Source of the DNA: Candidatus Shapirobacteria bacterium
Lineage (GTDB): Bacteria; Patescibacteriota; Microgenomatia; UBA12405
DNA length: 57,974 bases
Direction of reading: 5' to 3'
Assembly: GCA_003250375.1 (NCBI GenBank)
Contig: QKGR01000026.1
Span: 1-57,974, forward strand
Part shown: positions 5,539 to 57,804 of the stretch, in pieces
Position numbering within the stretch: the first letter of the stretch is position 1
How the letters are laid out: every line of letters starts with the position of its first letter
Translations under genes and position numbers: made by a program
Notes under the pieces: model-generated
Seen by the model: the letters and a program-made list of their open reading frames with translations, nothing else
Databases searched by the model: none
What the model was told of the DNA's origin: nothing

Positions 5539-5578
5539 AATAAATTTGATTCTTGAAGGGCGATTCGTGAGCTTTGAA

Positions 5579-17435: not shown

Positions 17436-17659
17436 AGATTGTACTCATAATAAGCTTTAATCGGACCGATAATCAGCTAGCTGTACCAGATTAATAGACA
17501 GAGTCGGCTGTTATCTACATGCTCGTCGACTACCGAATGAAAACCAAGTCGACTGCGCAAGTTCCTCTTAAAACTTATTAAGATTTATTAGTTGAAATTT
17601 TGTTTTATAAACATGACATAATGGTTTGTGTGTATGTTTATCGGCATAATATTGGCTCA

Positions 17660-18543: not shown

Positions 18544-20484
18544 ATGATAAAAGAAATGAATAAAAAATTGAAAGAGATGTTGGGAATTAAAAATAATAAA
18601 AAAGTAGCTAAGAAAGAAGAAAATGAGATGGGTTTGCCAAAAGAGGTGATGGATAAATTGCCAAAAGATGTGAAGATTAAGAAAATTACAATTGACAGCT
18701 CGACGATTTTGAGAACAGCTTTGTACGGAGTACTGTTGATTTGGTTGTTTGCAGCGGTAAGAGGGGCAGTGGTGGGAGAAAATGTGAGCCATGTACCTAT
18801 TTCGGAGATTGTGAGCCAAGTTAAGGATGGGAAAGTGGATGAATTGAAAGTAATTGATAATGAAATTGTGGCTAAATTAAAAGATAGCGACAAAGTACTG
18901 ACTTCTTCAAAAGAACAGAATATTTCGATGGCAGAAATTTTGCAAAGCGAGGGAGTGGATATTGCTAATGTGAAAGTAGTAGTAGAGAACAGAGAAATGT
19001 GGAAGATGTTTTTGAGTGCAATTGGAATGTTTTTGACGGTAGGATTGCCAATACTGGTACTAATTTGGTTGTTTAGAAAAATGGGAAGCGGGGCAGGAAA
19101 TGGGGGAATGTTTGGATTTGGAAAATCGCCAGCTAAATTGTTCGTGAAAGGTAAACAAAAAACAACTTTTAAGGATGTGGCAGGAGTGGAAGAGGCTAAA
19201 AAAGATTTGGAAGAAGTAGTAGACTTTTTGAAATTTCCTGAGAAATACATGAAAATGGGAGCCAGAGCACCAAAAGGAGTGTTGCTGGTAGGACCAGCTG
19301 GGGTGGGTAAGACTTTGTTGGCGAAGGCAGTGGCAGGAGAGGCAAATGTGTCCTTTTTCTCGATGGCAGGATCGGAATTTATGGAAATGTTGGTGGGTGT
19401 GGGTGCGGCTAGAGTAAGAGATTTGTTTGGAACAGCGAAAAAAGCCGGAAAGGCAATTATCTTTATTGATGAAATTGATGCGATTGGAAGAATGAGGGGT
19501 GGACTGGATGGCGGCCATGGGGAAAGAGAACAGACTTTGAATCAGATTTTGGTAGAAATGGATGGATTTGAGGCTAATACAGCAGTAGTAGTGTTGGCAG
19601 CAACCAACCGGGGAGACTTGTTGGACCCAGCTTTGATGAGACCAGGAAGATTTGATAGAAGAGTGGTACTGGAAATGCCTGATTTGGAGGCAAGATTGGA
19701 AATGCTAAAGATACATTCCAAAGGAAAACCAATGGATACTGATGTTGATTGGGAAGCGGTAGCTAGAAGAACGGTGGGATTTTCGGGAGCTGATATTGAA
19801 AATATGTTGAATGAGGCGGCAATCGGAGCAGCAAGAGAAAATAAAAAGAAAATTAATATGGAAGAAATTGAAGAGGCAGCTTTGAAAGTCAAGCTGGGGG
19901 CGGCTAAGAAGAGAACCCAAACTGAGGAAGATAAACTGATGACGGCTTACCATGAGGCGGGACACGCAATTGTGAACTATGTGGAAGGACTTGATCCGGT
20001 GCATAGAATTTCGATTGTCTCAAGAGGAATGGCGCTAGGATTCACTTTGGTGCCGCCAAAGAGAGACGAAGTGCACCAGACTAAATCGAATTTAATTAAG
20101 AGAATGGCGATGGCGATGGGTGGAAGAGCGGCGGAAGAGATTGTGTTTGGGGATATTACTACCGGGGCAGCTTCGGATATTTCTCATGTGACTAATATTG
20201 CTAGAAATATGGTGACTGAATGGGGAATGTCGGAATTGGGGCCGGTGAACTGGGGAGCCCAGATTGATATTAATGACTTTGGTAAGGCTTATATGGAGCC
20301 GTCGAAGGTGTCGGATGGGATGCTTGAAAAAGTTGACGAGGAAATTAAAAAATTGGTGAATACGGCTCAAGAAAGAGCTGTTGAAATTCTGAAAGCCAAT
20401 AGAGAAAAGATGGAGAAGATTGCCAAACTTCTGGTGGAAAAAGAAACTTTGGATGATAAAGAATTTGCGAAGATGATGGAGTGA
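18544..20484 (+). CDS. ftsH: ATP-dependent zinc metalloprotease FtsH
   Basis: Walker A GPAGVGKTLLAKA, Walker B IIFIDEIDA, and HEAGHA zinc site. The start was moved from the track TTG 18505 to the in-frame ATG 18544. Confidence 0.95.
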   Translation: MIKEMNKKLKEMLGIKNNKKVAKKEENEMGLPKEVMDKLPKDVKIKKITIDSSTILRTALYGVLLIWLFAAVRGAVVGENVSHVPISEIVSQVKDGKVDELKVIDNEIVAKLKDSDKVLTSSKEQNISMAEILQSEGVDIANVKVVVENREMWKMFLSAIGMFLTVGLPILVLIWLFRKMGSGAGNGGMFGFGKSPAKLFVKGKQKTTFKDVAGVEEAKKDLEEVVDFLKFPEKYMKMGARAPKGVLLVGPAGVGKTLLAKAVAGEANVSFFSMAGSEFMEMLVGVGAARVRDLFGTAKKAGKAIIFIDEIDAIGRMRGGLDGGHGEREQTLNQILVEMDGFEANTAVVVLAATNRGDLLDPALMRPGRFDRRVVLEMPDLEARLEMLKIHSKGKPMDTDVDWEAVARRTVGFSGADIENMLNEAAIGAARENKKKINMEEIEEAALKVKLGAAKKRTQTEEDKLMTAYHEAGHAIVNYVEGLDPVHRISIVSRGMALGFTLVPPKRDEVHQTKSNLIKRMAMAMGGRAAEEIVFGDITTGAASDISHVTNIARNMVTEWGMSELGPVNWGAQIDINDFGKAYMEPSKVSDGMLEKVDEEIKKLVNTAQERAVEILKANREKMEKIAKLLVEKETLDDKEFAKMME

Positions 20485-20490
20485 GATATA

Positions 20491-20662
20491 AGACATGATT
20501 CAAGAAGCATGATGCATGATTCATGAAGAAGACAGAAGACATGATTCAAGAAGCATGATGCATGATTCATGAAGAAGACAGAAGACATGATTCAAGAAGC
20601 ATGATGCATGATTCATGAAGAAGACAGAAGACGTGATTCAAGAAGCATGATACATGAGACAG
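20491..20662. repeat. tandem repeat, 46-bp unit x ~3.7 (AGACATGATTCAAGAAGCATGATGCATGATTCATGAAGAAGACAGA)
   Basis: Unit starts at 20491, 20537, 20583 and 20629. Lies between convergent ftsH and the four-helix-bundle gene. Confidence 0.9.
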
Positions 20663-20665
20663 GAT

Positions 20666-35361: not shown

Positions 35362-35377
35362 TATGAAAATACTGCAA

Positions 35378-35467
35378 CTTGATAATAAATTTTTCGTACT
35401 CGCTACCTTCGGGCTCGGCGTAAGCTGGCTCGCGTTCGCTGCGTGCGAAAAATTAATTATCTTCGTT
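35378..35467. repeat. family C palindromic element
   Basis: Same core as 17660-17744. Arms GATAATAAATTTTT / AAAAATTAATTATC. Confidence 0.9.
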
Positions 35468-35499: not shown

Positions 35500-36558
35500 A
35501 TGAAAGATAAAGCTAAAATCGGACTGTTCTTTGGAGGTAAGATTTCCCAACATTTACTATTGCTTAAAAAGGCGGCAAAGAGATTGGGGGTGAGGTTGGA
35601 TTTGCTCTCTTATAATAGAGTATGTTTTGATTCTGAGAATCAAAAAGTGATGATACGAGGGTCGGTGGGAGAAGAATCGAGATTGGGCTATGAGGGATCG
35701 ATGAAGGAAGTGGGAGAGTATGATGTGTTGTTTTTTAGAACTACAGGAAAACATTGGGAAGAAGTGGATTTGGTGATTAGGGCTGTGGAGGAAAACAAAA
35801 ATAAAGACGTGGTGGTGATTGATCCTTTGGTGAGATTTGGAAAGCCATCGTATGCCTGCAAGGCTTGGCAAATGTTGAAGTTGAAAGAGGCTGGAATTGA
35901 GGTGCCGAAGACTGTTTATGGATCCTTGTGGTATTTGTATGAGTTTATGAAAATCAGTTCAGATTCTCGTCAACGAATTTTGTCCGTGCTCACGCCCTTC
36001 GGGGATAAACCCACTCGGATGATTGCGCGCGGAAAAATTGTTGACTCCGAATCTATTGCAAACATGCATTTTCCGGTGATCTTGAAGGGAAGTGGAGGTG
36101 ATAGGGGGACTCGAGTGTTTAAAGCTAATAATTTGGAAGAATTGGGTTCTTTGGTGAGAGAGCTAAGAATGAGTGAAATTAAGGAAGGAAGAAGGTATAT
36201 GTTGCAGGAATATATTGAAAATGATGGTGATTATAGAGTGTTGGTGTTGGGAGATAGAGTGCTTGGAGTGATGAAAAGATCGAGCCAAAGCAAGGCTGAA
36301 TTTAGAAATAATTTTTCGGCGGGAGGGAAAGTGGAAGTGGCTGATTTGCCTGAGAATATTAAAAAGATGGCAGTGGAGGCGGCCAGAGTATGCGGATTGG
36401 CGATTGCTGGTGTGGATGTGGCCTTTAGGAATTTTGATATGAGTAAGCCAGTGGTGTGGGAAGTGAACAAAGGGCCGCAATTTAAAGGATTTATGGAAGC
36501 GACTGGAATTGATGTACCTGAAGAAATAGTTAAATATTTAGTTAGTTTAAAAAAATAG
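35500..36558 (+). CDS. RimK-type ATP-grasp ligase (alpha-L-glutamate-ligase-like), with in-frame palindromic insertion
   Basis: FPVILKGSGGDRGTRVFK, MLQEYIE..DYRVLVLGDRVLGVMKR, FRNNFSAGG, AGVDV..VWEVNKGPQF. Confidence 0.7.
   Translation: MKDKAKIGLFFGGKISQHLLLLKKAAKRLGVRLDLLSYNRVCFDSENQKVMIRGSVGEESRLGYEGSMKEVGEYDVLFFRTTGKHWEEVDLVIRAVEENKNKDVVVIDPLVRFGKPSYACKAWQMLKLKEAGIEVPKTVYGSLWYLYEFMKISSDSRQRILSVLTPFGDKPTRMIARGKIVDSESIANMHFPVILKGSGGDRGTRVFKANNLEELGSLVRELRMSEIKEGRRYMLQEYIENDGDYRVLVLGDRVLGVMKRSSQSKAEFRNNFSAGGKVEVADLPENIKKMAVEAARVCGLAIAGVDVAFRNFDMSKPVVWEVNKGPQFKGFMEATGIDVPEEIVKYLVSLKK
35961..36054. repeat. family C' palindromic element inside CDS (core GTGCTCACGCCCTTCGGGGATAAACCCACTCGGATGATTGCGCGCGG)
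   Basis: Near-identical intergenic copy at 57714-57804. Translated as SDSRQRILSVLTPFGDKPTRMIARGKIVDSES. Confidence 0.85.
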
Positions 36559-36568
36559 ATGATAATAG

Positions 36569-36657
36569 ACTCGATACTAAATTTTTAGTGCTCGCTACCT
36601 TCGGGCTCGGCGTAAGCTGGCTCGCGTTCGCTGTGCTCTAAAAATTTAGTATCTTCG
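36569..36657. repeat. family C palindromic element
   Basis: Arms GATACTAAATTTTTA / TAAAAATTTAGTATC. Core identical to the other copies. Confidence 0.9.
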
Positions 36658-36683
36658 TCTAGATATATATTTAAATAAATAGT

Positions 36684-37667
36684 ATGAAAAGAAAAATATT
36701 AGTCTTAACAATGTCGCAATCGCAAAGTAATTTTGAGGTGACAAGATTGGTGGAAGAAGCGGCAAAACATGGGATTGAGGTGGAGAGAGCTTTGTACAGA
36801 GATTTAACTTTTGATTTGACCAGTGATAAGGAAAAAGTGTTTGTGAAAGGGAAAGAAATTACTCCAGAAAACACAATGGCAGTGTGGTTTAGGGTGGCAG
36901 GGACAATTAGTGGAAAATATACTGAGGGAAGGAATTTGCTGATTCGAGTATTGAGATCGAGAGGAATTTTTTGCGCCAACCACAAAGGATATTTGGGCTG
37001 GACGAGAATGGGGAAGATTGCTCAACACGCAGTGTTTGTGGAGAATCAGATTCCAGTAGTGCCAACCAGAATTTTTTATCAAATTAGCCAGGTGCTAGAT
37101 TTGAAAAACAAGTCGAAAGAGAAATTTGGAGATTGGGATTTTCCAATTATTGCCAAGCACGAGAGAGGCTACCAGGGGAAGTCGGTACGAAAATTTAAGA
37201 GCTGGAAGAGAGTGGAAAGATGGCTAAATAAAATAGATGAGATTAATTTGGGAATGTTTTTGTGGCAAAAATGTTTGCCGACCAGATGGGATTTGAGAAT
37301 AATTGTGCTGGGTGGAAAAGCGATTGGAGCCATGAAAAGATCGGCAGTAGGAAAAGAATTTAGAAGTAATTTTTCACTAGGTGGGAATGTGGAAAAGTGG
37401 GAATTGTCCGAAGATGATAAAGTTTTGGCGGAAAAAGTGGCTAAGGTGTGCGGGCTTGATTATTGTGGTGTGGATATTATGAAGGACGATGAAGGTAATA
37501 GTTATATTCTGGAGGTAAACCGACAGTGTCAATATCAGGGATTTGAGAAAGCGACGGGGATTAATGTGGCTGAGAAAGTAGTGGAAATGCTTTCAGAAAT
37601 GACTTATGATGGTAGTAGTGAAAAGGAGTCGATGGATACAATTTTTGGCAATATTAGCTGTTGTTAG
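36684..37667 (+). CDS. RimK-type ATP-grasp ligase paralogue
   Basis: FPIIAKHERGYQGKSVRKF, DLRIIVLGGKAIGAMKR, FRSNFSLGG, CGVDIM..ILEVNRQCQYQGF. Confidence 0.7.
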   Translation: MKRKILVLTMSQSQSNFEVTRLVEEAAKHGIEVERALYRDLTFDLTSDKEKVFVKGKEITPENTMAVWFRVAGTISGKYTEGRNLLIRVLRSRGIFCANHKGYLGWTRMGKIAQHAVFVENQIPVVPTRIFYQISQVLDLKNKSKEKFGDWDFPIIAKHERGYQGKSVRKFKSWKRVERWLNKIDEINLGMFLWQKCLPTRWDLRIIVLGGKAIGAMKRSAVGKEFRSNFSLGGNVEKWELSEDDKVLAEKVAKVCGLDYCGVDIMKDDEGNSYILEVNRQCQYQGFEKATGINVAEKVVEMLSEMTYDGSSEKESMDTIFGNISCC

Positions 37668-38352
37668 CATTGGAACGTACAAAAGCGTAGTTCCTTCTGA
37701 GGCAGCACTAACCACACCTTATTGTGGAAAATGTGGTGATACTTGTGTGGATACACCAGAATCTTTTGCGGCATGTCCGGCGACAACAAGAGATGATTTT
37801 GAATGTTTGATGGTGGATGGGGTTTGCGAGACGGTGACCATTGGTGATCCTGAAGTGCCGACATTGACGCCAACAGTGGCGGCTCCAACACCATCCGATA
37901 GAGATCAATCTTGTATGGCATGTGGAAGCGAGTGCAAGTGGGTGGTACCAGGAATAGATAGTTGTTTGCCAACTATTGGCAATTTTGTATGTATGGAGCA
38001 GGGGGCAAACTGTGTGGTGAAAGAAGTGTCGTACCAGATTACACCGACGTCGGGTGCACCAACAAGCGATTTAGATGTGTGTGTGGTTTGTGGAACAAAA
38101 GAGTATGGAGATGCAAATTGTGATGGATCGGTGGAATTGGATGATTTTGTAGTATGGAGAGCTGATTATATAAATGGTATGAATAGTAGTTGTACAAATG
38201 GTGACTTTGATGGGGATGGGAGAGTGGAACTGTCTGACTTTGTAATATGGAGGAGTGGGTATATTAATGGACTACCTAAGAAGACATTATCGGGCGAAAT
38301 TGAGAATCCTGGTCCAATTAAACCAACAATTACTGGTTTTGAAGAATATTAA
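37606..38352 (+). CDS. secreted Cys-rich protein with C-terminal paired dockerin-like repeats
   Basis: Signal peptide MMVVVKRSRWIQFLAILAVVSIGTYKSVVPSEA. 2.5 six-Cys modules. DANCDGSVELDDFVVWRADY and NGDFDGDGRVELSDFVIWRSGY. The start overlaps the upstream gene by 62 nt and is uncertain. Confidence 0.55.
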   Translation: MMVVVKRSRWIQFLAILAVVSIGTYKSVVPSEAALTTPYCGKCGDTCVDTPESFAACPATTRDDFECLMVDGVCETVTIGDPEVPTLTPTVAAPTPSDRDQSCMACGSECKWVVPGIDSCLPTIGNFVCMEQGANCVVKEVSYQITPTSGAPTSDLDVCVVCGTKEYGDANCDGSVELDDFVVWRADYINGMNSSCTNGDFDGDGRVELSDFVIWRSGYINGLPKKTLSGEIENPGPIKPTITGFEEY

Positions 38353-43720: not shown

Positions 43721-43861
43721 AAATGAGACGATAAATGCGACTGAATCTTGTCCGCCTAGTGCGGATCAAACGTTAACAATCTGTTTTTTTGGTTTACTTT
43801 CAATTTCTTGGCAACTTAATTGAGTTGCCTAACCCGCCTCATCGGCGGGTAAATTTTATTG

Positions 43862-46839
<2,978 letters not shown>

Positions 46840-46950
46840 CAATAAAATCTGGCTCTTTGGACGTCTTTTCTTGACGATCAAGGAGCTGGAGTAGGTAACT
46901 CAATTAAGAGGCCAAGATAATTAGTAGTAAACCAAATAGTTTGATTTTTG

Positions 46951-47072: not shown

Positions 47073-47181
47073 GAGAAATCAACTAAATCTCCCTTTGACA
47101 AGGGAGACTTAAAAGATAAAACAGATTGTTAATATATCCGCTTTCGCTGAAGCTTCAGCGTGACAAGGGCGGATTTTTTTT
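47057..47181. repeat. direct repeat copy 1 (5S 3' end + downstream hairpins + terminator)
   Basis: GGTCGCGGCCGGAATTGAGAAATCAA...GTGACAAGGGCGGATTTTTTTT is repeated at 47469-47603. Confidence 0.9.
47136..47181 (+). terminator. rho-independent terminator after 5S rRNA
   Basis: ATCCGC...CGCTGAAGCTTCAGCG (perfect palindrome)...GCGGAT, followed by T8. Confidence 0.6.
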
Positions 47182-47189
47182 GGTATCAT
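47181..47189 (+). promoter_or_regulatory. extended -10 box TGGTATCAT, 6 nt before ATG 47196
   Basis: Read directly. Confidence 0.45.
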
Positions 47190-47468: not shown

Positions 47469-47603
47469 GGTCGCGGCCGGAATTGAGAAATCAAGCAAAT
47501 CCCTCTAAATCTCCCTCTGGCAAGGGAGACTTAAAAGATAAAACAGATTGTTAATATATCCGCTTTCGCTGAAGCTTCAGCGTGACAAGGGTTGATTTTT
47601 TTT
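47469..47603. repeat. direct repeat copy 2 (contains a 10-nt insertion and a decayed terminator stem)
   Basis: Aligned by eye to 47057-47181. GGGCGGA has become GGGTTGA. Confidence 0.9.
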
Positions 47604-47617
47604 GTGATAACGGATGA

Positions 47618-52734: not shown

Positions 52735-54153
52735 GTGAAATTTAGAAGTTGGTATGTAGTACTTGGATTGGTAGTAGTATTGTGCTGGCCAATGAGCGTG
52801 GAAGCAGTGGAACCTAAGGGAAATATAGATGGAATTTCGAATGGGGTGATAAGTGGCTGGGCCTATGATCCTGATGAGCCGAGCAAATCGATAACAATAC
52901 ATGTGTATGTGGATGGGCCAGTGGGAAATGGAAGAGTGGTAGGATCGGCAACAGCAAATAAACTAAGAAATGATGTGAATGCGGCTTACGGAATAAGCGG
53001 GAATCATGGATTTGGATTTACAATACCGAGTGAATTGTTGAAAGGGTATAGGAAATTTTATGTGTATGCGATTGATAGTCAGGGTGGGGTGAATCCTTTG
53101 GTGGCGGGAAGTCCAAAAGAAAATGGGGTGCGTCCGACGGGAAATATGAGTATTAGTAAGTCGGTACTAGGAAGTGAATTGAAAATTACGGCGATGGAAA
53201 GATTTGGAGGAGCAATTGGGTCGCTAACTTGGAAGGGAGTGGAATTTGTGGATATTGCTGACCATGGAAGGCAATTGCAAAGCGCTTGTCATTTTGATGA
53301 TGAAGGCGAGTGCTACAATCCAACGGAAGCAGGGTCGATGGCTGACGGAACAAAACAAACGTCGACTTCGGAATGGCAGTATGGGAGTAATGAGGGAGGA
53401 GCGCTGAAAACTCAATCGAGAATGGCTTTTTGGTTGAGCCCAGGAGGGGTGCTTGGGGGAGGATGTGTGAGTGGGAGGGTGATTAATACTGCGCCGGTGT
53501 CGAATTTTATTTTTGGCAAGGAAATTAAGATTGGATATGATAACTGGGAAAACGTGATTGAGTATGATGTGAATTTTTGGGTGGCAGAGGATCATGGGAA
53601 GGGGGTGTTTGAAATTTTGACGGGGTATATGCCGATTAAATTTAATAAATTTTATGCCTTTGATAAGGCAACAAAATCGATTAAAAGTATTGTTTCGGGG
53701 GGAAGTGATAAGCCGGTGATTCAGGCGACAGCAGATGGGAGCTTGGCGATGGGGATTTATACGCCATGGAAACAATTGGGGGTGAGGGGGACTGATTATT
53801 ATGCGGCTTATTATTCGGTGAGAGATTTTAGTGATGTGAGCGTGGCGGCAACAAAATGGAATGTGGCGATGCATAACATGACAGCGAAAAAAGGAAATTA
53901 TGCATTTAAGAATTTTGTAATAGTAGGAAGTTTGGAGGAGGTGGTGAAGACGATGGGAGAGTTGATGGATTTTGAAGAAAGTGATTTGGAAGGTGACGCA
54001 AATGGAGACGGAAAGGTAGACTTGGAAGATTTTGTGATTTGGAGAGGGGAATATACAGGGGTATTGAATACAAAGAGGGCGGATTTTAATGGGGATGGAA
54101 AAGTTGATTTGGGGGATTTTGTGGTGTGGAGGGGAGCTTATGTGGGGAATTAG
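52735..54153 (+). CDS. secreted modular protein: shared N-module, unknown central domain, C-terminal paired dockerin-like repeats
   Basis: Signal peptide MKFRSWYVVLGLVVVLCWPMSVEA. The N-module is similar to the next gene. GDANGDGKVDLEDFVIWRGEY and ADFNGDGKVDLGDFVVWRGAY. TATACT lies 5 nt before the GTG. Confidence 0.65.
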   Translation: MKFRSWYVVLGLVVVLCWPMSVEAVEPKGNIDGISNGVISGWAYDPDEPSKSITIHVYVDGPVGNGRVVGSATANKLRNDVNAAYGISGNHGFGFTIPSELLKGYRKFYVYAIDSQGGVNPLVAGSPKENGVRPTGNMSISKSVLGSELKITAMERFGGAIGSLTWKGVEFVDIADHGRQLQSACHFDDEGECYNPTEAGSMADGTKQTSTSEWQYGSNEGGALKTQSRMAFWLSPGGVLGGGCVSGRVINTAPVSNFIFGKEIKIGYDNWENVIEYDVNFWVAEDHGKGVFEILTGYMPIKFNKFYAFDKATKSIKSIVSGGSDKPVIQATADGSLAMGIYTPWKQLGVRGTDYYAAYYSVRDFSDVSVAATKWNVAMHNMTAKKGNYAFKNFVIVGSLEEVVKTMGELMDFEESDLEGDANGDGKVDLEDFVIWRGEYTGVLNTKRADFNGDGKVDLGDFVVWRGAYVGN

Positions 54154-55675
54154 GTTGATTAAAATATTTTTAGTATTGGCCTTGTTGGGTTGTTGGATGC
54201 CGGTGCGGGTGGAGGCAGCAGAACCAAAAGGAGTGGTTGATGGAATTTCAAATGGAGTAATTAGTGGTTGGGCTTATGATCCAGATGAGACTGCTAAGTC
54301 GATTAATGTTCATTTTTATGTGGAAAATGAGAATGGAGGGAAGACTTTGATGGGGGGAAAAGCGACTGATGTATTGAGAAATGATGTTAATACGATATTT
54401 TCGATTAGTGGAAACCATGGGTTTGGATATGGCTTAGCGGAGGAATATCTGACTGGTTATAGAAAGTTTTTTGTGTATGGAATAGATAGTGCTGGTGGTG
54501 TGAATCCACAAATTAGTGGTTCGCCTAAGGATGGATTTAATGTTGGCGGAGGGGCGGACTATGAGATTGTGGTGTTGCCGGATACTCAGATGTATACGTA
54601 CTACGATAAGTGGGTTGATAGGTTGAAGTCACAAATAGATTGGATAATTAATAACAAGGATAAAGAAAAAATTAAGATGGTGATACAGGTGGGGGACTTG
54701 ACTAATATGAGTGAGGATCGTGAATGGTTGATAATTCAAGAACAGATGATGCGATTGGAGAGAGCAGGTATACCGTGGTTGGTTGCATATGGAAACCATG
54801 ATACAGATGAGACAAACAGACGGTTTACTGAACGGCTGACAACAAAATATAATAAATACTTCCCGCTGAGCAGATATACAAGTAAAGGTTATTTTTATGA
54901 TGAGTACGAAGAAGGTAAATCGGACAATGTGGCTTTAAAGATGGATATTGGAGATAAAAGTTGGGTATTTGTCTCTCTGGAGCATACGCCTAGAGATGGA
55001 GTATTGGCATGGGCGAGAAAGATAATGGATGACAATCCTGAGAGTGTTGGGGTAGTAATAGTTCATTCATATTTGGTTTATACAAATGAGTGGTCAGGAG
55101 AAAAGTCGTCTAGCGGTGATGCTAATAGTGGTAGAGATATATGGGATGAATTAGTGTACCCGAGTAAAAACATACGGATGGTGTTGAGTGGACACGATAA
55201 TACAAATATAGGTGGTTGGGGAACTTATGGTAGGAGAGTTGATAAGAATAGCGGTGGCTTGGAAGTGTACCAGATGATGGGTAATTATCAGGGAAACAAA
55301 GATACGTATTTGGCTTTGAATGGTGGTGATGGGTATTTGAGAAGGATTAGTGTTTTTGAGAATAAGAAAAAAATTGGAGTGGCAACTTACTCGCCATATT
55401 TAAATAAATATTTTGTGAATGATGGTAATCAATTCAGATTTACCAATGTTGATTTGGAAGGAAAGAGTATTGAGGTGTCTCCAGTGGCAACAGCAACGCC
55501 AAGCATGGCAAAAGTAGCAGGAGATGCAACGGGGGATGGGAAAGTAGAACTAGATGATTTTGTAATATGGAGAAGTGAGTACTTGGGAAATGTGACAACT
55601 AAGAAAGCTGATTTTAATGGAGATGGAAAAGTAGAGCTGGATGATTTTGTAGTGTGGAGGGGGAGGTATATTTAG
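54140..55675 (+). CDS. secreted modular protein: shared N-module, calcineurin-like metallophosphoesterase domain, dockerin-like repeats
   Basis: VVLPDTQMY, QVGDLTN, YGNHD, VIVHSY and LSGHDN are phosphoesterase motifs. C-terminal GDATGDGKVELDDFVIWRSEY and ADFNGDGKVELDDFVVWRGRY. ATG 54140 is preferred over the track 54089; TTG 54155 is also possible. Confidence 0.65.
   Translation: MWGIRLIKIFLVLALLGCWMPVRVEAAEPKGVVDGISNGVISGWAYDPDETAKSINVHFYVENENGGKTLMGGKATDVLRNDVNTIFSISGNHGFGYGLAEEYLTGYRKFFVYGIDSAGGVNPQISGSPKDGFNVGGGADYEIVVLPDTQMYTYYDKWVDRLKSQIDWIINNKDKEKIKMVIQVGDLTNMSEDREWLIIQEQMMRLERAGIPWLVAYGNHDTDETNRRFTERLTTKYNKYFPLSRYTSKGYFYDEYEEGKSDNVALKMDIGDKSWVFVSLEHTPRDGVLAWARKIMDDNPESVGVVIVHSYLVYTNEWSGEKSSSGDANSGRDIWDELVYPSKNIRMVLSGHDNTNIGGWGTYGRRVDKNSGGLEVYQMMGNYQGNKDTYLALNGGDGYLRRISVFENKKKIGVATYSPYLNKYFVNDGNQFRFTNVDLEGKSIEVSPVATATPSMAKVAGDATGDGKVELDDFVIWRSEYLGNVTTKKADFNGDGKVELDDFVVWRGRYI
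55487..55675. repeat. 189-nt dockerin-encoding segment nearly identical to 57512-57700
   Basis: Aligned by eye: 15 substitutions over 189 nt, mostly at third codon positions. Confidence 0.85.
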
Positions 55676-55708: not shown

Positions 55709-57700
55709 GTGAAATGCTACAAATGGAGTTTATGGTTGGGATTGATACTGATATCGTGTTGGCCAAGAGGGGTAGAGGCGGCGTCGGCAGAACATTTGAA
55801 AAATGTGCAGGAAATGACTTTGGGGAAGATTGCCAGAATTTCGGATTTGTATCCAAGTAATGATACTAATTCGACCTATTTTAAGACGATAATTGATTTT
55901 AGTAATAAGGGCTATACGATTTTTAATGTGAGATTGCCGGGGAAGTTGGATGATACGGCAGGAAGTGTGAAGATGGCGGTGGAGATGATGAAAAAGATTG
56001 ATACGACAACAGGGAAGAAAAATAAATATTTGGTGAATGTGGATATTTATACTGCGAATTCGAGTAGTTTATTGAAGGACAGATTGAATAATGGGAAAGA
56101 GATAGTTCAGTCGTCAATAATATGTCCGAATTTTGCTTTTGTAGATGTGACTGATACAAATCAAAGGAAGTATGTAATAGATTATTCTTCGGAATATACA
56201 AGACTAATGAATGCATCGGAAATTGGAAGCCAGGTGGTGGGGTATTTACCATACTATGGAATGTATGGAGAGACGGGAATCTATGTGGGAGATGCGGGGT
56301 GTAGTGGTAGAAATGGTGAATTTGATAGCTTTAAACATGGTTATTTGGATGTGGTAGCAGGGTATTCGGTGAATAGTTTGACTGAATTTAAGAGCTTTTA
56401 TGCGACGAAAAAGACTGAAGGAGTAATTCCGGCCAATAGTGCAGTGGATGCATTGGTGGACAAAATAGATGTGAATGTGAGTTCGACTTGGCCAAAGCCG
56501 AGTGAATATGAGGCTAATAGAATTATGTATGCCTATTATTTGATGTATAGAAAAGGTGAGTCGAGAAGTTTTAATGGAGAAATTGCAAAAGCAATTGCTG
56601 GGTCGGGAGAAAGTAAGGCAATAGCTTCATTTTGTTATTTGCCGGTGAGGTATGCTCAGGCAGCTAATGGCTGGGCTGATTTTCCCGGGGCAGATTTTTG
56701 TATGGCACAAATTGGAACAGGAACTTATGGAACTAGAAAGATACTGTTGGAGACTGATTGTGTTGGTGGGAGCGATTATTCTGGGGGTAATTCTTGTTCG
56801 AGGTCGGGTAGTAATTGGTTTAGAGTGGAGACAGAGAGGACTATAAAAATGGGAGGGAATACTGCAACATTTAACAGAGCAGAGTATTGGCCAGATGAGG
56901 TGAACGCGGTGACTGAGGGGCTAAATAACAGGAGTAGTCTGTTGAATAATCAATATAAATATAGTAGACAAATTGCAATTTTAATTCCAAGTTATTCGAG
57001 AGCATTGATTAAACAGTCCAGTGGAGACCCTGCTTTTAGATTGGCCTTATTGGAACATAACTTGACAGTGGTGAGTAAATTGAATGAATTGGGTGTGTCG
57101 TATGATTTTATTTCAGAAGACGAGCTGTTTGATTTGGATGGTTTGAAGAATTATAAAGTTATCGTGATTCATGATCAGAATTTATTTTCAAAGTTGTTCC
57201 CAAGCCAATGGCAGAAGTTTTTGGCTAGGTACGCGGGGGTGGCTTTTGGTGATAATAACGGAAGTTTAGATTATGCTGGGTTGGTAACAAGAGTGAGGAA
57301 TTCGGTGATGAATGTGGCTGATAGGTGTGCGAATATTTGTACTAACGCGACTTATGCTTATTTGGAAAATACGAGTTGTAGAAAGACTTGTCCGGCGGCT
57401 ACAGCATTGGCAACAGCGACGCCAACAATTAAAGCAACAGCGACGCCAACTATTATGCCGAGTCCAACCGTAACAATTAAGCCAAGCGCAACGGCGACGA
57501 TTAAGCCAAATGCAACAGCAACGCCAAGCATGGCAAAGGTAGTAGGAGATGCTAATGGGGATGGGAAAGTAGAACTAGATGATTTTGTGATTTGGAGAAG
57601 TGAGTATTTGGGAAATGTGACAACAAAGAAAGCTGATTTTAATGGAGATGGGAAAGTAGAGTTGGATGATTTTGTAGTGTGGAGAGGGAGGTATATTTAG
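55709..57700 (+). CDS. secreted protein, unknown large domain, ATATP-type linkers, C-terminal paired dockerin-like repeats
   Basis: Signal peptide MKCYKWSLWLGLILISCWPRGVEA. ATATPTIKATATPTIMPSPTVTIKPSATATIKPNATATPS linker. The dockerin pair is identical in protein sequence to that of the preceding gene, apart from a few residues. TATACT lies 6 nt before the GTG. Confidence 0.65.
   Translation: MKCYKWSLWLGLILISCWPRGVEAASAEHLKNVQEMTLGKIARISDLYPSNDTNSTYFKTIIDFSNKGYTIFNVRLPGKLDDTAGSVKMAVEMMKKIDTTTGKKNKYLVNVDIYTANSSSLLKDRLNNGKEIVQSSIICPNFAFVDVTDTNQRKYVIDYSSEYTRLMNASEIGSQVVGYLPYYGMYGETGIYVGDAGCSGRNGEFDSFKHGYLDVVAGYSVNSLTEFKSFYATKKTEGVIPANSAVDALVDKIDVNVSSTWPKPSEYEANRIMYAYYLMYRKGESRSFNGEIAKAIAGSGESKAIASFCYLPVRYAQAANGWADFPGADFCMAQIGTGTYGTRKILLETDCVGGSDYSGGNSCSRSGSNWFRVETERTIKMGGNTATFNRAEYWPDEVNAVTEGLNNRSSLLNNQYKYSRQIAILIPSYSRALIKQSSGDPAFRLALLEHNLTVVSKLNELGVSYDFISEDELFDLDGLKNYKVIVIHDQNLFSKLFPSQWQKFLARYAGVAFGDNNGSLDYAGLVTRVRNSVMNVADRCANICTNATYAYLENTSCRKTCPAATALATATPTIKATATPTIMPSPTVTIKPSATATIKPNATATPSMAKVVGDANGDGKVELDDFVIWRSEYLGNVTTKKADFNGDGKVELDDFVVWRGRYI
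57512..57700. repeat. second copy of the 189-nt dockerin-encoding segment
   Basis: See 55487-55675. Confidence 0.85.
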
Positions 57701-57713
57701 AAGTTGGCTTTGT

Positions 57714-57804
57714 TTCGCCTCATGACGAAATTTTGCCGTGCTCACGCCCTTCGGGGATAAACCCCTCGGATGATTGCGCGCGGAAAATTTGTCATTTCGG
57801 CGAA
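57714..57804. repeat. family C' palindromic element (intergenic copy)
   Basis: TTCGCCTCATGACGAAATTTTGCCGTGCTCACGCCCTTCGGGGATAAACCCCTCGGATGATTGCGCGCGGAAAATTTGTCATTTCGGCGAA. Confidence 0.9.

What the first reader, a model, noticed from the sequence alone, without database searches (positions are those of the whole stretch)
35961..36054. A ~94-nt palindromic element (family C') sits in frame inside a RimK-type ATP-grasp ligase
Seen: the core GTGCTCACGCCCTTCGGGGATAAACCC(A/C)CTCGGATGATTGCGCGCGG, with inverted AATTTT-containing arms, occurs twice. One copy is intergenic at 57714-57804. The other is inside CDS 35500..36558, where it is translated as SDSRQRILSVLTPFGDKPTRMIARGKIVDSES, just before the nucleotide-binding strand FPVILKGSGG. 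The element contains a C(UUCG)G-type tetraloop hairpin (CCCTTCGGGG). Inference: this is a recent insertion into a linker of the enzyme. The paralogous ligase 36684..37667 has no such segment at the equivalent place (..GDWDFPIIAKHERG).
Basis: partly seen in the sequence, partly recalled or inferred. Interest (0 to 1): 0.6.

Follow-up and report, generated by a model that had tools for sequence, protein, structure and literature searches.

The report
Translated hairpin repeat inside RimK-like ligase
A 96-base hairpin-forming repeat element lies in frame in a floppy hinge loop of a RimK-like enzyme of an ultra-small (CPR) bacterium. This is the kind of "selfish DNA inside proteins" long known from Rickettsia, but here related bacteria fill, empty and refill the same loop again and again.

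Summary
Window 35959-36054 (32 codons) and 57714-57804 are the only two copies of one palindromic element in this 868-kb genome. Their cores are 95% identical.

The in-gene copy adds a 32-residue loop between the helix GSLWYLYEFMK and the strand FPVILKGSGG. AlphaFold predicts this loop to be disordered. The paralogue and many orthologues lack it.

It belongs to a low-copy family (1-4 per genome) confined to this Shapirobacteria-like family.
- Most copies are intergenic.
- Other copies lie in frame in LeuRS, MnmA, MurB and GT4 genes, in both orientations.
- All 43 copies examined keep the same strand on the G-rich (probably leading) strand. This points to spread as single-stranded DNA.

"Recent insertion" is only partly supported.
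- Orthologues from other genera carry the same family, with homologous arms, at the same site, read in three different frames.
- The loop is a turnover hotspot, with at least 47 changes of insert type among 121 orthologues.
- Genes about 90% identical in DNA can differ as filled versus empty.

All 67 loci tested keep the frame and have no stop, so the insert is translated, not removed.

The closest known things are Rickettsia palindromic elements and intragenic REPs. This scan has seen the same phenomenon, and probably this family, on other DNA.

The parts
35500..36558 (+). Host gene: RimK-like ATP-grasp ligase (352 aa). It is the third gene of a conserved module: 7TM_transglut, ATPgrasp_ST, RimK-like, RimK-like.
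   Evidence: PF08443 E=2.6e-28 and PF02955. AF2 pTM 0.80. Foldseek top hits are RimK 5zk6/7qyr, TM 0.79-0.80 normalised to the target. The same gene order is seen in L149, L150 and L154-L156.
35959..36054 (+). In-frame insert of 96 nt, i.e. 32 codons (residues 154-185). This is C' element copy 1.
   Evidence: Alignment with empty orthologues and with the paralogue. Hairpin of -35.9 kcal/mol, z -3.3. Residues 161-184 have pLDDT below 50.
35959..35985 (+). Left arm: outer stem AGATTC, loop TC(G), middle stem GTCAAC, then the A/T run GAATTTTGTCC.
   Evidence: Complementary to 36032-36054. Homologous to the left arms of the RimK-site copies L108, L117, L131, L150, L036 and L042.
35986..36031 (+). 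GC-rich core GTGCTCACGCC...GGATGATTGCGCGCG.
   Evidence: Nearly invariant in 42 copies from metagenomes. Two stem pairs covary: UA 21 / CG 20, and CG 35 / UA 7.
36032..36054 (+). Right arm GAAAAATTGTTGACTCCGAATCT.
   Evidence: Pairs with the left arm. Own-arm duplex energy is -14.0 kcal/mol, against a cross-copy mean of -4.4.
57714..57804 (+). C' element copy 2. It is intergenic, just 3' of the dockerin-repeat ORF that ends at 57700.
   Evidence: Core 95% identical to copy 1. The arms differ in sequence but are self-complementary. Frame A of this copy runs into TGA.
35377..35466 (+). Related 'family C' element in the gap before the host gene.
   Evidence: the repeat finder family D7. The C' profile detects it at E=0.002.
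36569..36658 (+). Related 'family C' element in the gap after the host gene.
   Evidence: the repeat finder family D7. nhmmer E=9e-28 with the family C profile.
36684..37667 (+). Paralogous RimK-like ligase without the insert.
   Evidence: BLASTP 35% identity over the ATP-grasp domain. It has a 13-residue linker in the alignment.

Best explanation
The 96 nt are one copy of a small, non-autonomous palindromic repeat element that landed in, or was renewed in, the hinge loop between the N-domain helix and the first strand of the ATP-grasp domain of a RimK-like ligase. The element has a GC-rich core, A/T-run inner arms and copy-specific outer arms, about 85-95 nt in all.

The ribosome reads straight through it. 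This adds about 32 residues, predicted to be disordered, to a loop that tolerates anything from 7 to 69 residues.

The family is low-copy, limited to this Shapirobacteria-like family, and mostly intergenic. It survives inside genes only where length and frame leave the protein intact.

Every copy has the same strand on the G-rich strand, whatever the direction of the host gene. From this I infer that the element spreads as single-stranded DNA at the replication fork, the way Y1 (HUH) transposases of the IS200/IS605-RAYT type move hairpin elements. The genome encodes two RAYT-like proteins.

Once a hairpin occupies the loop, the site becomes a hotspot. Cores are replaced, nested, duplicated or deleted while the arms persist.

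Shown: the repeat, the hairpin, in-frame translation constraint, loop tolerance, the hotspot and the strand lock.
Inferred: the ssDNA/Y1 mechanism, neutrality for the enzyme, and the direction of copying between the two copies.
For: Repeat and hairpin:
- Two copies, 95% identical in the core.
- Hairpin z-scores of -3.0 to -5.0.

Family:
- A metagenome scan gives 42 AT-rich copies.
- 26 are intergenic. Others lie in frame in LeuRS (twice), MnmA, MurB, GT4 and further genes, sense and antisense.
- The core stem has two covarying pairs.
- Outer arms are complementary only within a copy: -9.4 versus -4.4 kcal/mol, p=1e-17.

Translation:
- In 67 of 67 orthologous loci the anchors on either side are in one frame with no stop, across 33 different lengths.
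- The in-gene copy differs from the intergenic one by a 1-nt indel that avoids TGA.

Tolerance:
- Linker lengths run from 7 to 69 aa.
- pLDDT is below 50 for residues 161-184 in an otherwise confident RimK fold.

Hotspot:
- At least 47 changes of insert type on a tree of 121 orthologues.
- Filled versus empty or replaced loops in genes 90-91% identical in DNA.
- The family is read in three frames at this one site.
- Tandem and nested elements occur in L068 and L036.

Strand lock:
- 43 of 43 copies lie on the G-rich strand.
- Antisense host ORFs have third-position GC skew of -0.44 to -0.67; sense ORFs have +0.47 to +0.64.

Candidate enzyme and copy number:
- Two RAYT-like ORFs: NF047646 E=3.5e-15 and 2.6e-13.
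- 13 of 132 genomes of the order carry the strict pattern, all in this family, with 1-4 copies each.
Against: - No transposase sits next to any C' copy.
- The RAYT-like proteins score below the NCBIfam cut-off. The hairpin beside one of them is a different, small GTAG-tagged repeat.
- I found no target-site duplication or common target motif.
- In G041 and G042 the in-gene hairpin is the only copy in the genome. Ongoing mobility is therefore not evident everywhere.
- Strand lock could also come from strand-specific selection.
- Neither expression of the loop nor enzyme activity has been measured.
- The 43 copies are not fully independent. Some are orthologous sites or come from the same contig.
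Confidence: 0.72

Rival explanations
1. The hairpin is kept at this position because it does something as RNA or DNA. Examples would be a pause or processing site at the boundary of the two protein domains, or a regulator of the operon. On this reading the extra peptide is only a by-product.
For: - Dozens of orthologues carry some hairpin-forming sequence at exactly this place.
- Stems covary.
- Related elements fill the gaps between the genes of the same operon here and in L149/L150.
Against: - About 36 of 121 orthologues have a short linker with no hairpin.
- In the large SGEAARQAQ clade the peptide persists while the palindrome has eroded: L007 folds at -24 kcal/mol, and not as one hairpin.
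- The same family sits in unrelated genes in either orientation.
- There is no Rfam match.
Confidence: 0.1
2. The loop is an adaptive hypervariable region. On this reading, turnover of hairpin modules is selected because it diversifies a surface of the ligase, for example partner or substrate recognition, or escape from an inhibitor.
For: - Very fast turnover compared with the rest of the gene.
- Three frames are used, giving different peptides from one DNA family.
Against: - The peptides are predicted to be disordered.
- The same kind of insert occurs in housekeeping enzymes with no obvious need for diversity (and the scan notes).
- I made no test of selection on the loop.
Confidence: 0.1
3. 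The insert is not translated. It is removed from the mRNA or skipped by the ribosome, as with the hop in T4 gene 60 or the GC-rich 'byp' elements of yeast mitochondria.
For: A strong hairpin inside a coding region of an AT-rich genome resembles those cases (my own knowledge).
Against: If the insert were skipped, frame and stops would be free to vary. Instead 67 of 67 loci are in frame and free of stops, across 33 lengths. The in-gene copy also carries a 1-nt change that avoids TGA.
Confidence: 0.03
4. The in-gene hairpin is an old resident part of the gene, and the intergenic copy at 57714 is a secondary copy derived from it. On this reading the gene is the donor, not the target.
For: - The arms at the RimK site are shared across genera.
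- In G041 and G042 the in-gene element is single-copy.
- The two copies of this genome share the same apical variant, GGGGATAAACCC.
Against: - The family has many independent intergenic and intragenic sites in other genomes.
- Empty orthologues exist.
- The direction of copying cannot be read from two copies.
Confidence: 0.05

Closest known systems
Rickettsia palindromic elements (RPE-1 to RPE-10; Ogata et al. 2000/2002, as summarised in PMC10969869 and PMC3733652)
   Same: - Both are roughly 100-150-nt palindromic repeats in a small AT-rich genome.
- Both are found between genes and also in frame inside unrelated housekeeping genes.
- Both are translated as extra surface peptides compatible with the fold.
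   Different: - I know of no sequence relation, and did not test for one.
- This family has a far lower copy number (1-4 per genome).
- Its orientation is locked to the G-rich strand.
- One loop is filled, emptied and refilled in close relatives and read in three frames. From my own knowledge, RPE insertions are described as shared, stable insertions.
REP / REPIN elements mobilised by RAYT (Y1 HUH transposases), including intragenic REPs (Di Nocera et al. 2013, PMC3733652)
   Same: - Both are hairpin repeats, mostly just downstream of genes and sometimes inside genes.
- The genome encodes RAYT-like proteins.
- A structure-dependent, single-strand mechanism is plausible for both.
   Different: - C' is about 90 nt with a composite core, not a 20-40-nt stem-loop.
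- It has no GTAG tag.
- It does not flank the RAYT-like genes.
- It is low-copy.
IS200/IS605-family single-strand transposition (orientation tied to replication direction; from my own knowledge)
   Same: The orientation bias relative to strand asymmetry is absolute, at 43 of 43 copies.
   Different: - No TnpA or TnpB gene is associated with the element.
- No sub-terminal hairpin pair is seen.
- No defined target tetranucleotide was found.
MITEs
   Same: Both are short, non-coding and dispersed, and both have inverted terminal sequences.
   Different: - The outer arms differ between copies.
- No target-site duplication was seen.
- No parent IS was found.

Membership tests
Rickettsia palindromic elements (RPE)-type in-frame palindromic repeats | A repeated palindromic element with copies both between genes and inside ORFs of unrelated genes | tested here: met
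   Two copies in the genome. 42 copies in metagenomes: 26 intergenic, the others in LeuRS, MnmA, MurB, GT4 and RimK-like genes.
Rickettsia palindromic elements (RPE)-type in-frame palindromic repeats | Intragenic copies keep the reading frame and have no stop, so they are translated | tested here: met
   67 of 67 loci are in frame and free of stops. There is no direct protein evidence.
Rickettsia palindromic elements (RPE)-type in-frame palindromic repeats | The insert lies at a position compatible with the protein fold (a surface loop) | tested here: met
   AF2: insert pLDDT below 50, the rest confident, pTM 0.80. RimK fold retained. The linker varies from 7 to 69 aa.
Rickettsia palindromic elements (RPE)-type in-frame palindromic repeats | Sequence homology to RPE families, or a CGTC end tag (Di Nocera 2013) | tested here: not met
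   CGTC occurs in the left arm of this copy (35968-35971). It is not conserved in the family, where CTCGATAAC and CTTGATAAC are seen instead. Homology to RPE sequences was not tested.
REP/REPIN-RAYT | A short (20-40 nt) stem-loop with a GTAG tag | tested here: not met
   The element is about 85-95 nt and has no GTAG. A different small hairpin in this genome does carry GTAG, next to a RAYT-like gene.
REP/REPIN-RAYT | A RAYT gene in the genome, flanked by the repeats | tested here: inconclusive
   There are two RAYT-like ORFs: PF01797 over its cut-off, NF047646 E=3.5e-15 but below its cut-off. No C' copy is adjacent to any of them.
IS200/IS605-like single-strand mobilisation | Orientation fixed relative to replication strand asymmetry | tested here: met
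   43 of 43 copies lie on the G-rich strand, independent of host-gene direction. The replication origin itself was not mapped.
MITE | Conserved terminal inverted repeats plus a target-site duplication | tested here: not met
   Only the inner A/T arms are conserved. The outer arms are copy-specific. No duplication was seen at the ends.
Integron attC site | R''/R' core sites (RYYYAAC ... GTTRRRY) at the foot of the hairpin | tested here: not met
   By eye on the aligned arms: GTAAC/GTTAC-like stems occur, but the 7-mers do not fit. The gene order around the elements is conserved, not cassette-like.
RimK-type ATP-grasp ligase (host gene) | RimK ATP-grasp domain and fold | tested here: met
   PF08443 E=2.6e-28. 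PDB sequence hits to RimK at about 1e-16. Foldseek top hits are RimK. The substrate was not tested.

The most novel reading that the evidence does not exclude
A resident hairpin scaffold inside coding DNA may act as a landing pad. Strand-specific single-strand recombination would swap, nest or delete apical GC-rich modules there. The result would be a self-perpetuating generator of hypervariable protein loops in CPR bacteria, rather than a set of unrelated chance insertions.
Probability: 0.15. Interest if true: 0.7.

Novelty: new member of a known kind. Interest (0 to 1): 0.42.

Why it matters
- It shows that proteins of ultra-small CPR bacteria gain and lose loop residues through selfish hairpin DNA, as Rickettsia proteins do. 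Two full-text searches of the paper library found no report of this for the group.
- For annotation: odd 'insertions' in CPR proteins that translate to peptides such as SVLTP..RMIARG, SCSRP.., GAHALR.. or FFRAQSSE..EGREHEKK are repeat DNA, not functional motifs.
- The absolute strand lock and the refilling of one loop give a concrete handle on how such elements move.

Tried and rejected
- **Rfam.** Neither gathering nor permissive thresholds gave a match to the element.
- **Intrinsic terminator.** The T-run precedes the hairpin and the A-run follows it, on both strands, which is the wrong way round (read).
- **Integron attC.** The core-site motifs do not fit, and the operon is syntenic rather than cassette-like.
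- **Splicing or ribosomal bypass.** Rejected by the frame and stop test.
- **Hairpin arm copied backwards from the host flank** (idea from scan note e1-1034323). The empty allele L154 holds no trace of either arm of the filled allele L153, so this has no support here.
- **C(UUCG)G tetraloop as a family feature.** Only the GGGG sub-variant can form that stem.
- **Target motif or target-site duplication.** Ends defined by MFE folding run into chance pairing in AT-rich flanks, and no common motif emerged.
- **RAYT next to C' copies.** RAYT-like genes lie 0.8-8.5 kb away in 5 of 49 loci, which include duplicate records, and are never adjacent.

Full report
**Observation**

The window holds two copies of one element: 35961-36054 and 57714-57804.
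- The shared core is 95% identical over 66 nt.
- BLAST and an nhmmer profile find no third copy in the 868,382-base, 61-contig assembly, which is 93.7% complete.
- Both copies fold into one long hairpin on either strand, at -36 to -40 kcal/mol with z-scores of -3.0 to -5.0.
- The first copy lies inside ORF 35500-36558.

The ORF is a RimK-type ATP-grasp protein.
- PF08443 scores E=2.6e-28.
- PDB sequence hits to RimK are about 1e-16.
- The AlphaFold model has pTM 0.80, and its best structural matches are RimK 5zk6 and 7qyr.

**It is an insert in a tolerant loop**

Between the helix GSLWYLYE and the strand FPVIxKGSGG this protein has 43 residues. The paralogue 36684-37667 and many orthologues have 7-13.
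- Removing the 32 codons leaves EFMKIS-IANMH, which lines up with empty orthologues such as EFMKEGNISNTFS.
- In the model, residues 161-184 have pLDDT below 50 while the rest is confident.
- Pfam's RimK profile matches only from residue 183 onwards in this protein. In the paralogue it matches from profile position 4.

**The element belongs to a dispersed family**

I scanned metagenome contigs with GTGCTCRCGCC-N(18-48)-TGCGCGCGRAAAA. This gave 47 stretches. Five are chance hits in GC-rich DNA, and 42 distinct AT-rich copies remain.
- Twenty-six are intergenic, usually 20-60 nt from co-directional genes.
- Others lie inside long ORFs that I recognise by eye as LeuRS (two copies), MnmA, MurB (two species), a GT4 glycosyltransferase (two species), a large membrane protein and others. 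I did not run these ORFs against Pfam.
- Sense copies read as SVLTP..DDCARK or SCSRP... Antisense copies read as FFRAQSSE..EGREHEKK or FSARNIRGAMP...
- In GTDB genomes of the order, the strict pattern occurs in 13 of 132 genomes. All are in the window's own family, with 1-4 copies each. It occurs in 0 of 28 genomes of the six other families, and the reversed control pattern gives 0 hits.
- Contig titles of the orthologues name Candidatus Shapirobacteria / Microgenomates.

**Anatomy**

The family shares four parts:
- a near-invariant GC-rich core;
- inner arms made of an A/T run (AAATTTT ... AAAATTT);
- a middle stem and an outer stem whose sequences differ from copy to copy;
- a recurrent internal loop, CTCG/CTTG on the left and CTTCG on the right.

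RNAalifold supports the core stem with two covarying pairs: UA 21 / CG 20, and CG 35 / UA 7.

The outer arms are complementary only within a copy. Own left-right duplexes average -9.4 kcal/mol, against -4.4 for left arms paired with the right arms of other copies (Mann-Whitney p=1e-17).

The 'family C' elements at 17658, 35377 and 36569, plus two more on other contigs, are weakly detected by the C' profile and vice versa. I take them to be relatives.

There is no Rfam match.

**Translated, not removed**

I located the anchors FFRTTG and WEVNK independently of frame. In 67 of 67 orthologous loci they lie in one frame with no stop between them, although the distance takes 33 different values from 612 to 747 nt.

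Read in the gene's frame, the intergenic copy of this genome hits TGA. The in-gene copy has one extra A (CCCACTCGG) that avoids it.

**Not simply 'recent'**

The same family sits at the same site in orthologues of other genera (G016, G024, G094; L108, L117, L131, L150). Their arms are homologous to those here: CAGATTCTCGYCAMC ... TTCGAATCT.

Orthologues with a different core (the 111-nt 'SGESAKQAQ' type; L042, L006) share those arms too. BLAST of the L042 element hits 35963-35984 and 36031-36052 of the window at 86% identity. These hits are short, so E=0.4.

At this one site the C' core is read in three frames:
- VLTP: own copy, L108, L131, L150;
- CSRP/CSRL: L036, L068;
- GAHA/GARP: L051, L153, L155.

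In G041 and G042 the in-gene hairpin is the only copy in the genome.

So the site has been occupied for a long time or many times. The 95% identity between the two copies of this genome points to a late copying or conversion event whose direction is unknown.

**Hotspot**

I built a tree of 121 orthologues with the loop removed. On it the insert type needs at least 47 changes; label shuffles average 73 and were never as low in 200 trials.
- Sister genes 90% identical in DNA differ as filled (126 nt, C' core) versus empty (21 nt): L153 versus L154.
- L155 and L156, 91% identical, carry a C' core versus an unrelated 60-nt segment.
- L068 carries two elements in tandem.
- L036 has a small hairpin nested in the C' apex, and an identical 23-nt copy of that hairpin occurs in another genome.
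- In the large SGEAARQAQ clade the peptide persists while the palindrome has eroded (L007). This argues against selection for the hairpin itself.

**Strand lock**

I oriented every copy so that it reads GTGCTC...GCGCGCG. The flanking DNA then has positive GC skew in 43 of 43 cases (binomial p=2e-13; the copies are not all independent).

This is not a gene-direction effect.
- Host ORFs that carry the element antisense have third-position GC skew of -0.44 to -0.67.
- Those that carry it in sense have +0.47 to +0.64.
- The window itself has skew of +0.19 to +0.49 throughout.
- All seven C/C' copies of this genome lie on the G-rich strand.

This reproduces, on independent loci, a claim made by an earlier follow-up of this scan for what looks like the same family (e1-860444).

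**Mechanism (inferred)**

An absolute orientation bias relative to strand asymmetry is what single-strand transposition by Y1 HUH enzymes gives. That statement rests on my own knowledge of IS608 and ISDra2.

The genome has two RAYT-like ORFs.
- Both have the HUH motif.
- One has SYHDRII and the other SFFDEII at the expected tyrosine.
- Both pass the PF01797 cut-off, and NF047646 scores E=3.5e-15 and 2.6e-13, below its cut-off.
- The C7 copy lies between ruvA and ruvB. It is followed by a small GTAG-tagged hairpin, not by a C' element.
- No RAYT-like gene is adjacent to any C' copy.

The enzyme assignment is therefore a lead, not a result. I found no target-site duplication or common target motif.

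**What is known**

In-frame palindromic repeats are well known from Rickettsia (RPEs) and from intragenic REPs (PMC10969869, PMC3733652). Two full-text searches gave no paper on such elements in CPR/Patescibacteria.

This scan has about 38 earlier notes of in-frame hairpins in Patescibacteria, including two in this very window (radA, and an O-antigen-ligase-like gene). I therefore file this as a new member of a known kind. Two features go beyond the classical picture: repeated refilling of one loop in three frames, and an absolute strand lock.

**Limits**

- No close relative of this genome is available; the best orthologue is 78% identical in protein. The age of this particular copy therefore cannot be measured.

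Noticed in passing
window 1-57974: GC skew on the + strand is very strong and uniform, at +0.19 to +0.49 in 4-kb bins. Third-codon positions reach +0.6. The strand asymmetry in this lineage is extreme.
   Followed up: partly
orthologues P0094/P0109 (alignment A2 columns ~30-39) and P0019/P0033/P0042 (columns ~133-142): RimK-like orthologues have two further in-frame variable inserts at other sites. TRLRQGYGGQ lies after KKAA. GQT(Q/R)GS(A/V)RTP lies before PVIVDP and looks like a translated GGGC...GCCCGTAC small hairpin (window family at 5577, 9146, 9367, 12249, 18082, 51675).
   Followed up: no
genome contig C7:9281-9772 (L152:1297-1788) and L152:1830-1858: A RAYT-like Y1 transposase gene sits between ruvA and ruvB. 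It is followed by a GTAG-tagged hairpin, GTAGGGAACAGGCATGCCTGTTCCGTAC. A second RAYT-like gene (C11:2070-2540) has F in place of the expected catalytic Y.
   Followed up: partly
window 20438-20664: Four head-to-tail copies of a 46-nt unit (…CATGATTCAAGAAGCATGATGCATGATTCATGAAGAAGACAGAAGA…).
   Followed up: no
window 43806-43840 / 46883-46917 and 47083-47182 / 47505-47604: A 35-nt inverted repeat brackets the 23S rRNA gene and is probably a processing stem. Two 96%-identical 100-nt direct repeats follow the 5S gene. No 16S gene lies next to the 23S in this window.
   Followed up: no
window 38096-38262, 53959-54147, 55487-55675, 57512-57700: Repeated dockerin-like DGDGKVELDDFVxWR modules occur at the C-termini of several secreted-looking proteins. 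The intergenic C' copy follows one of them.
   Followed up: no
L036:3463-3600 (genome G041/G094): Here the C' core carries a nested small hairpin (GACCCGCCTGCCGGACGGGCAGGTG). An identical 23-nt copy of it occurs on contig C79 of another genome (G014), and a 96%-identical one on C99.
   Followed up: partly
L156:1501-2493 loop (RSQISDLRSQENKIK): In some orthologues the same loop is filled by a 7-nt tandem repeat (TCAGATC/TCAGATT) instead of a hairpin. It resembles the TCAGTTGGTCAGTT repeats at window 5913, 7171, 11550 and 30825.
   Followed up: no
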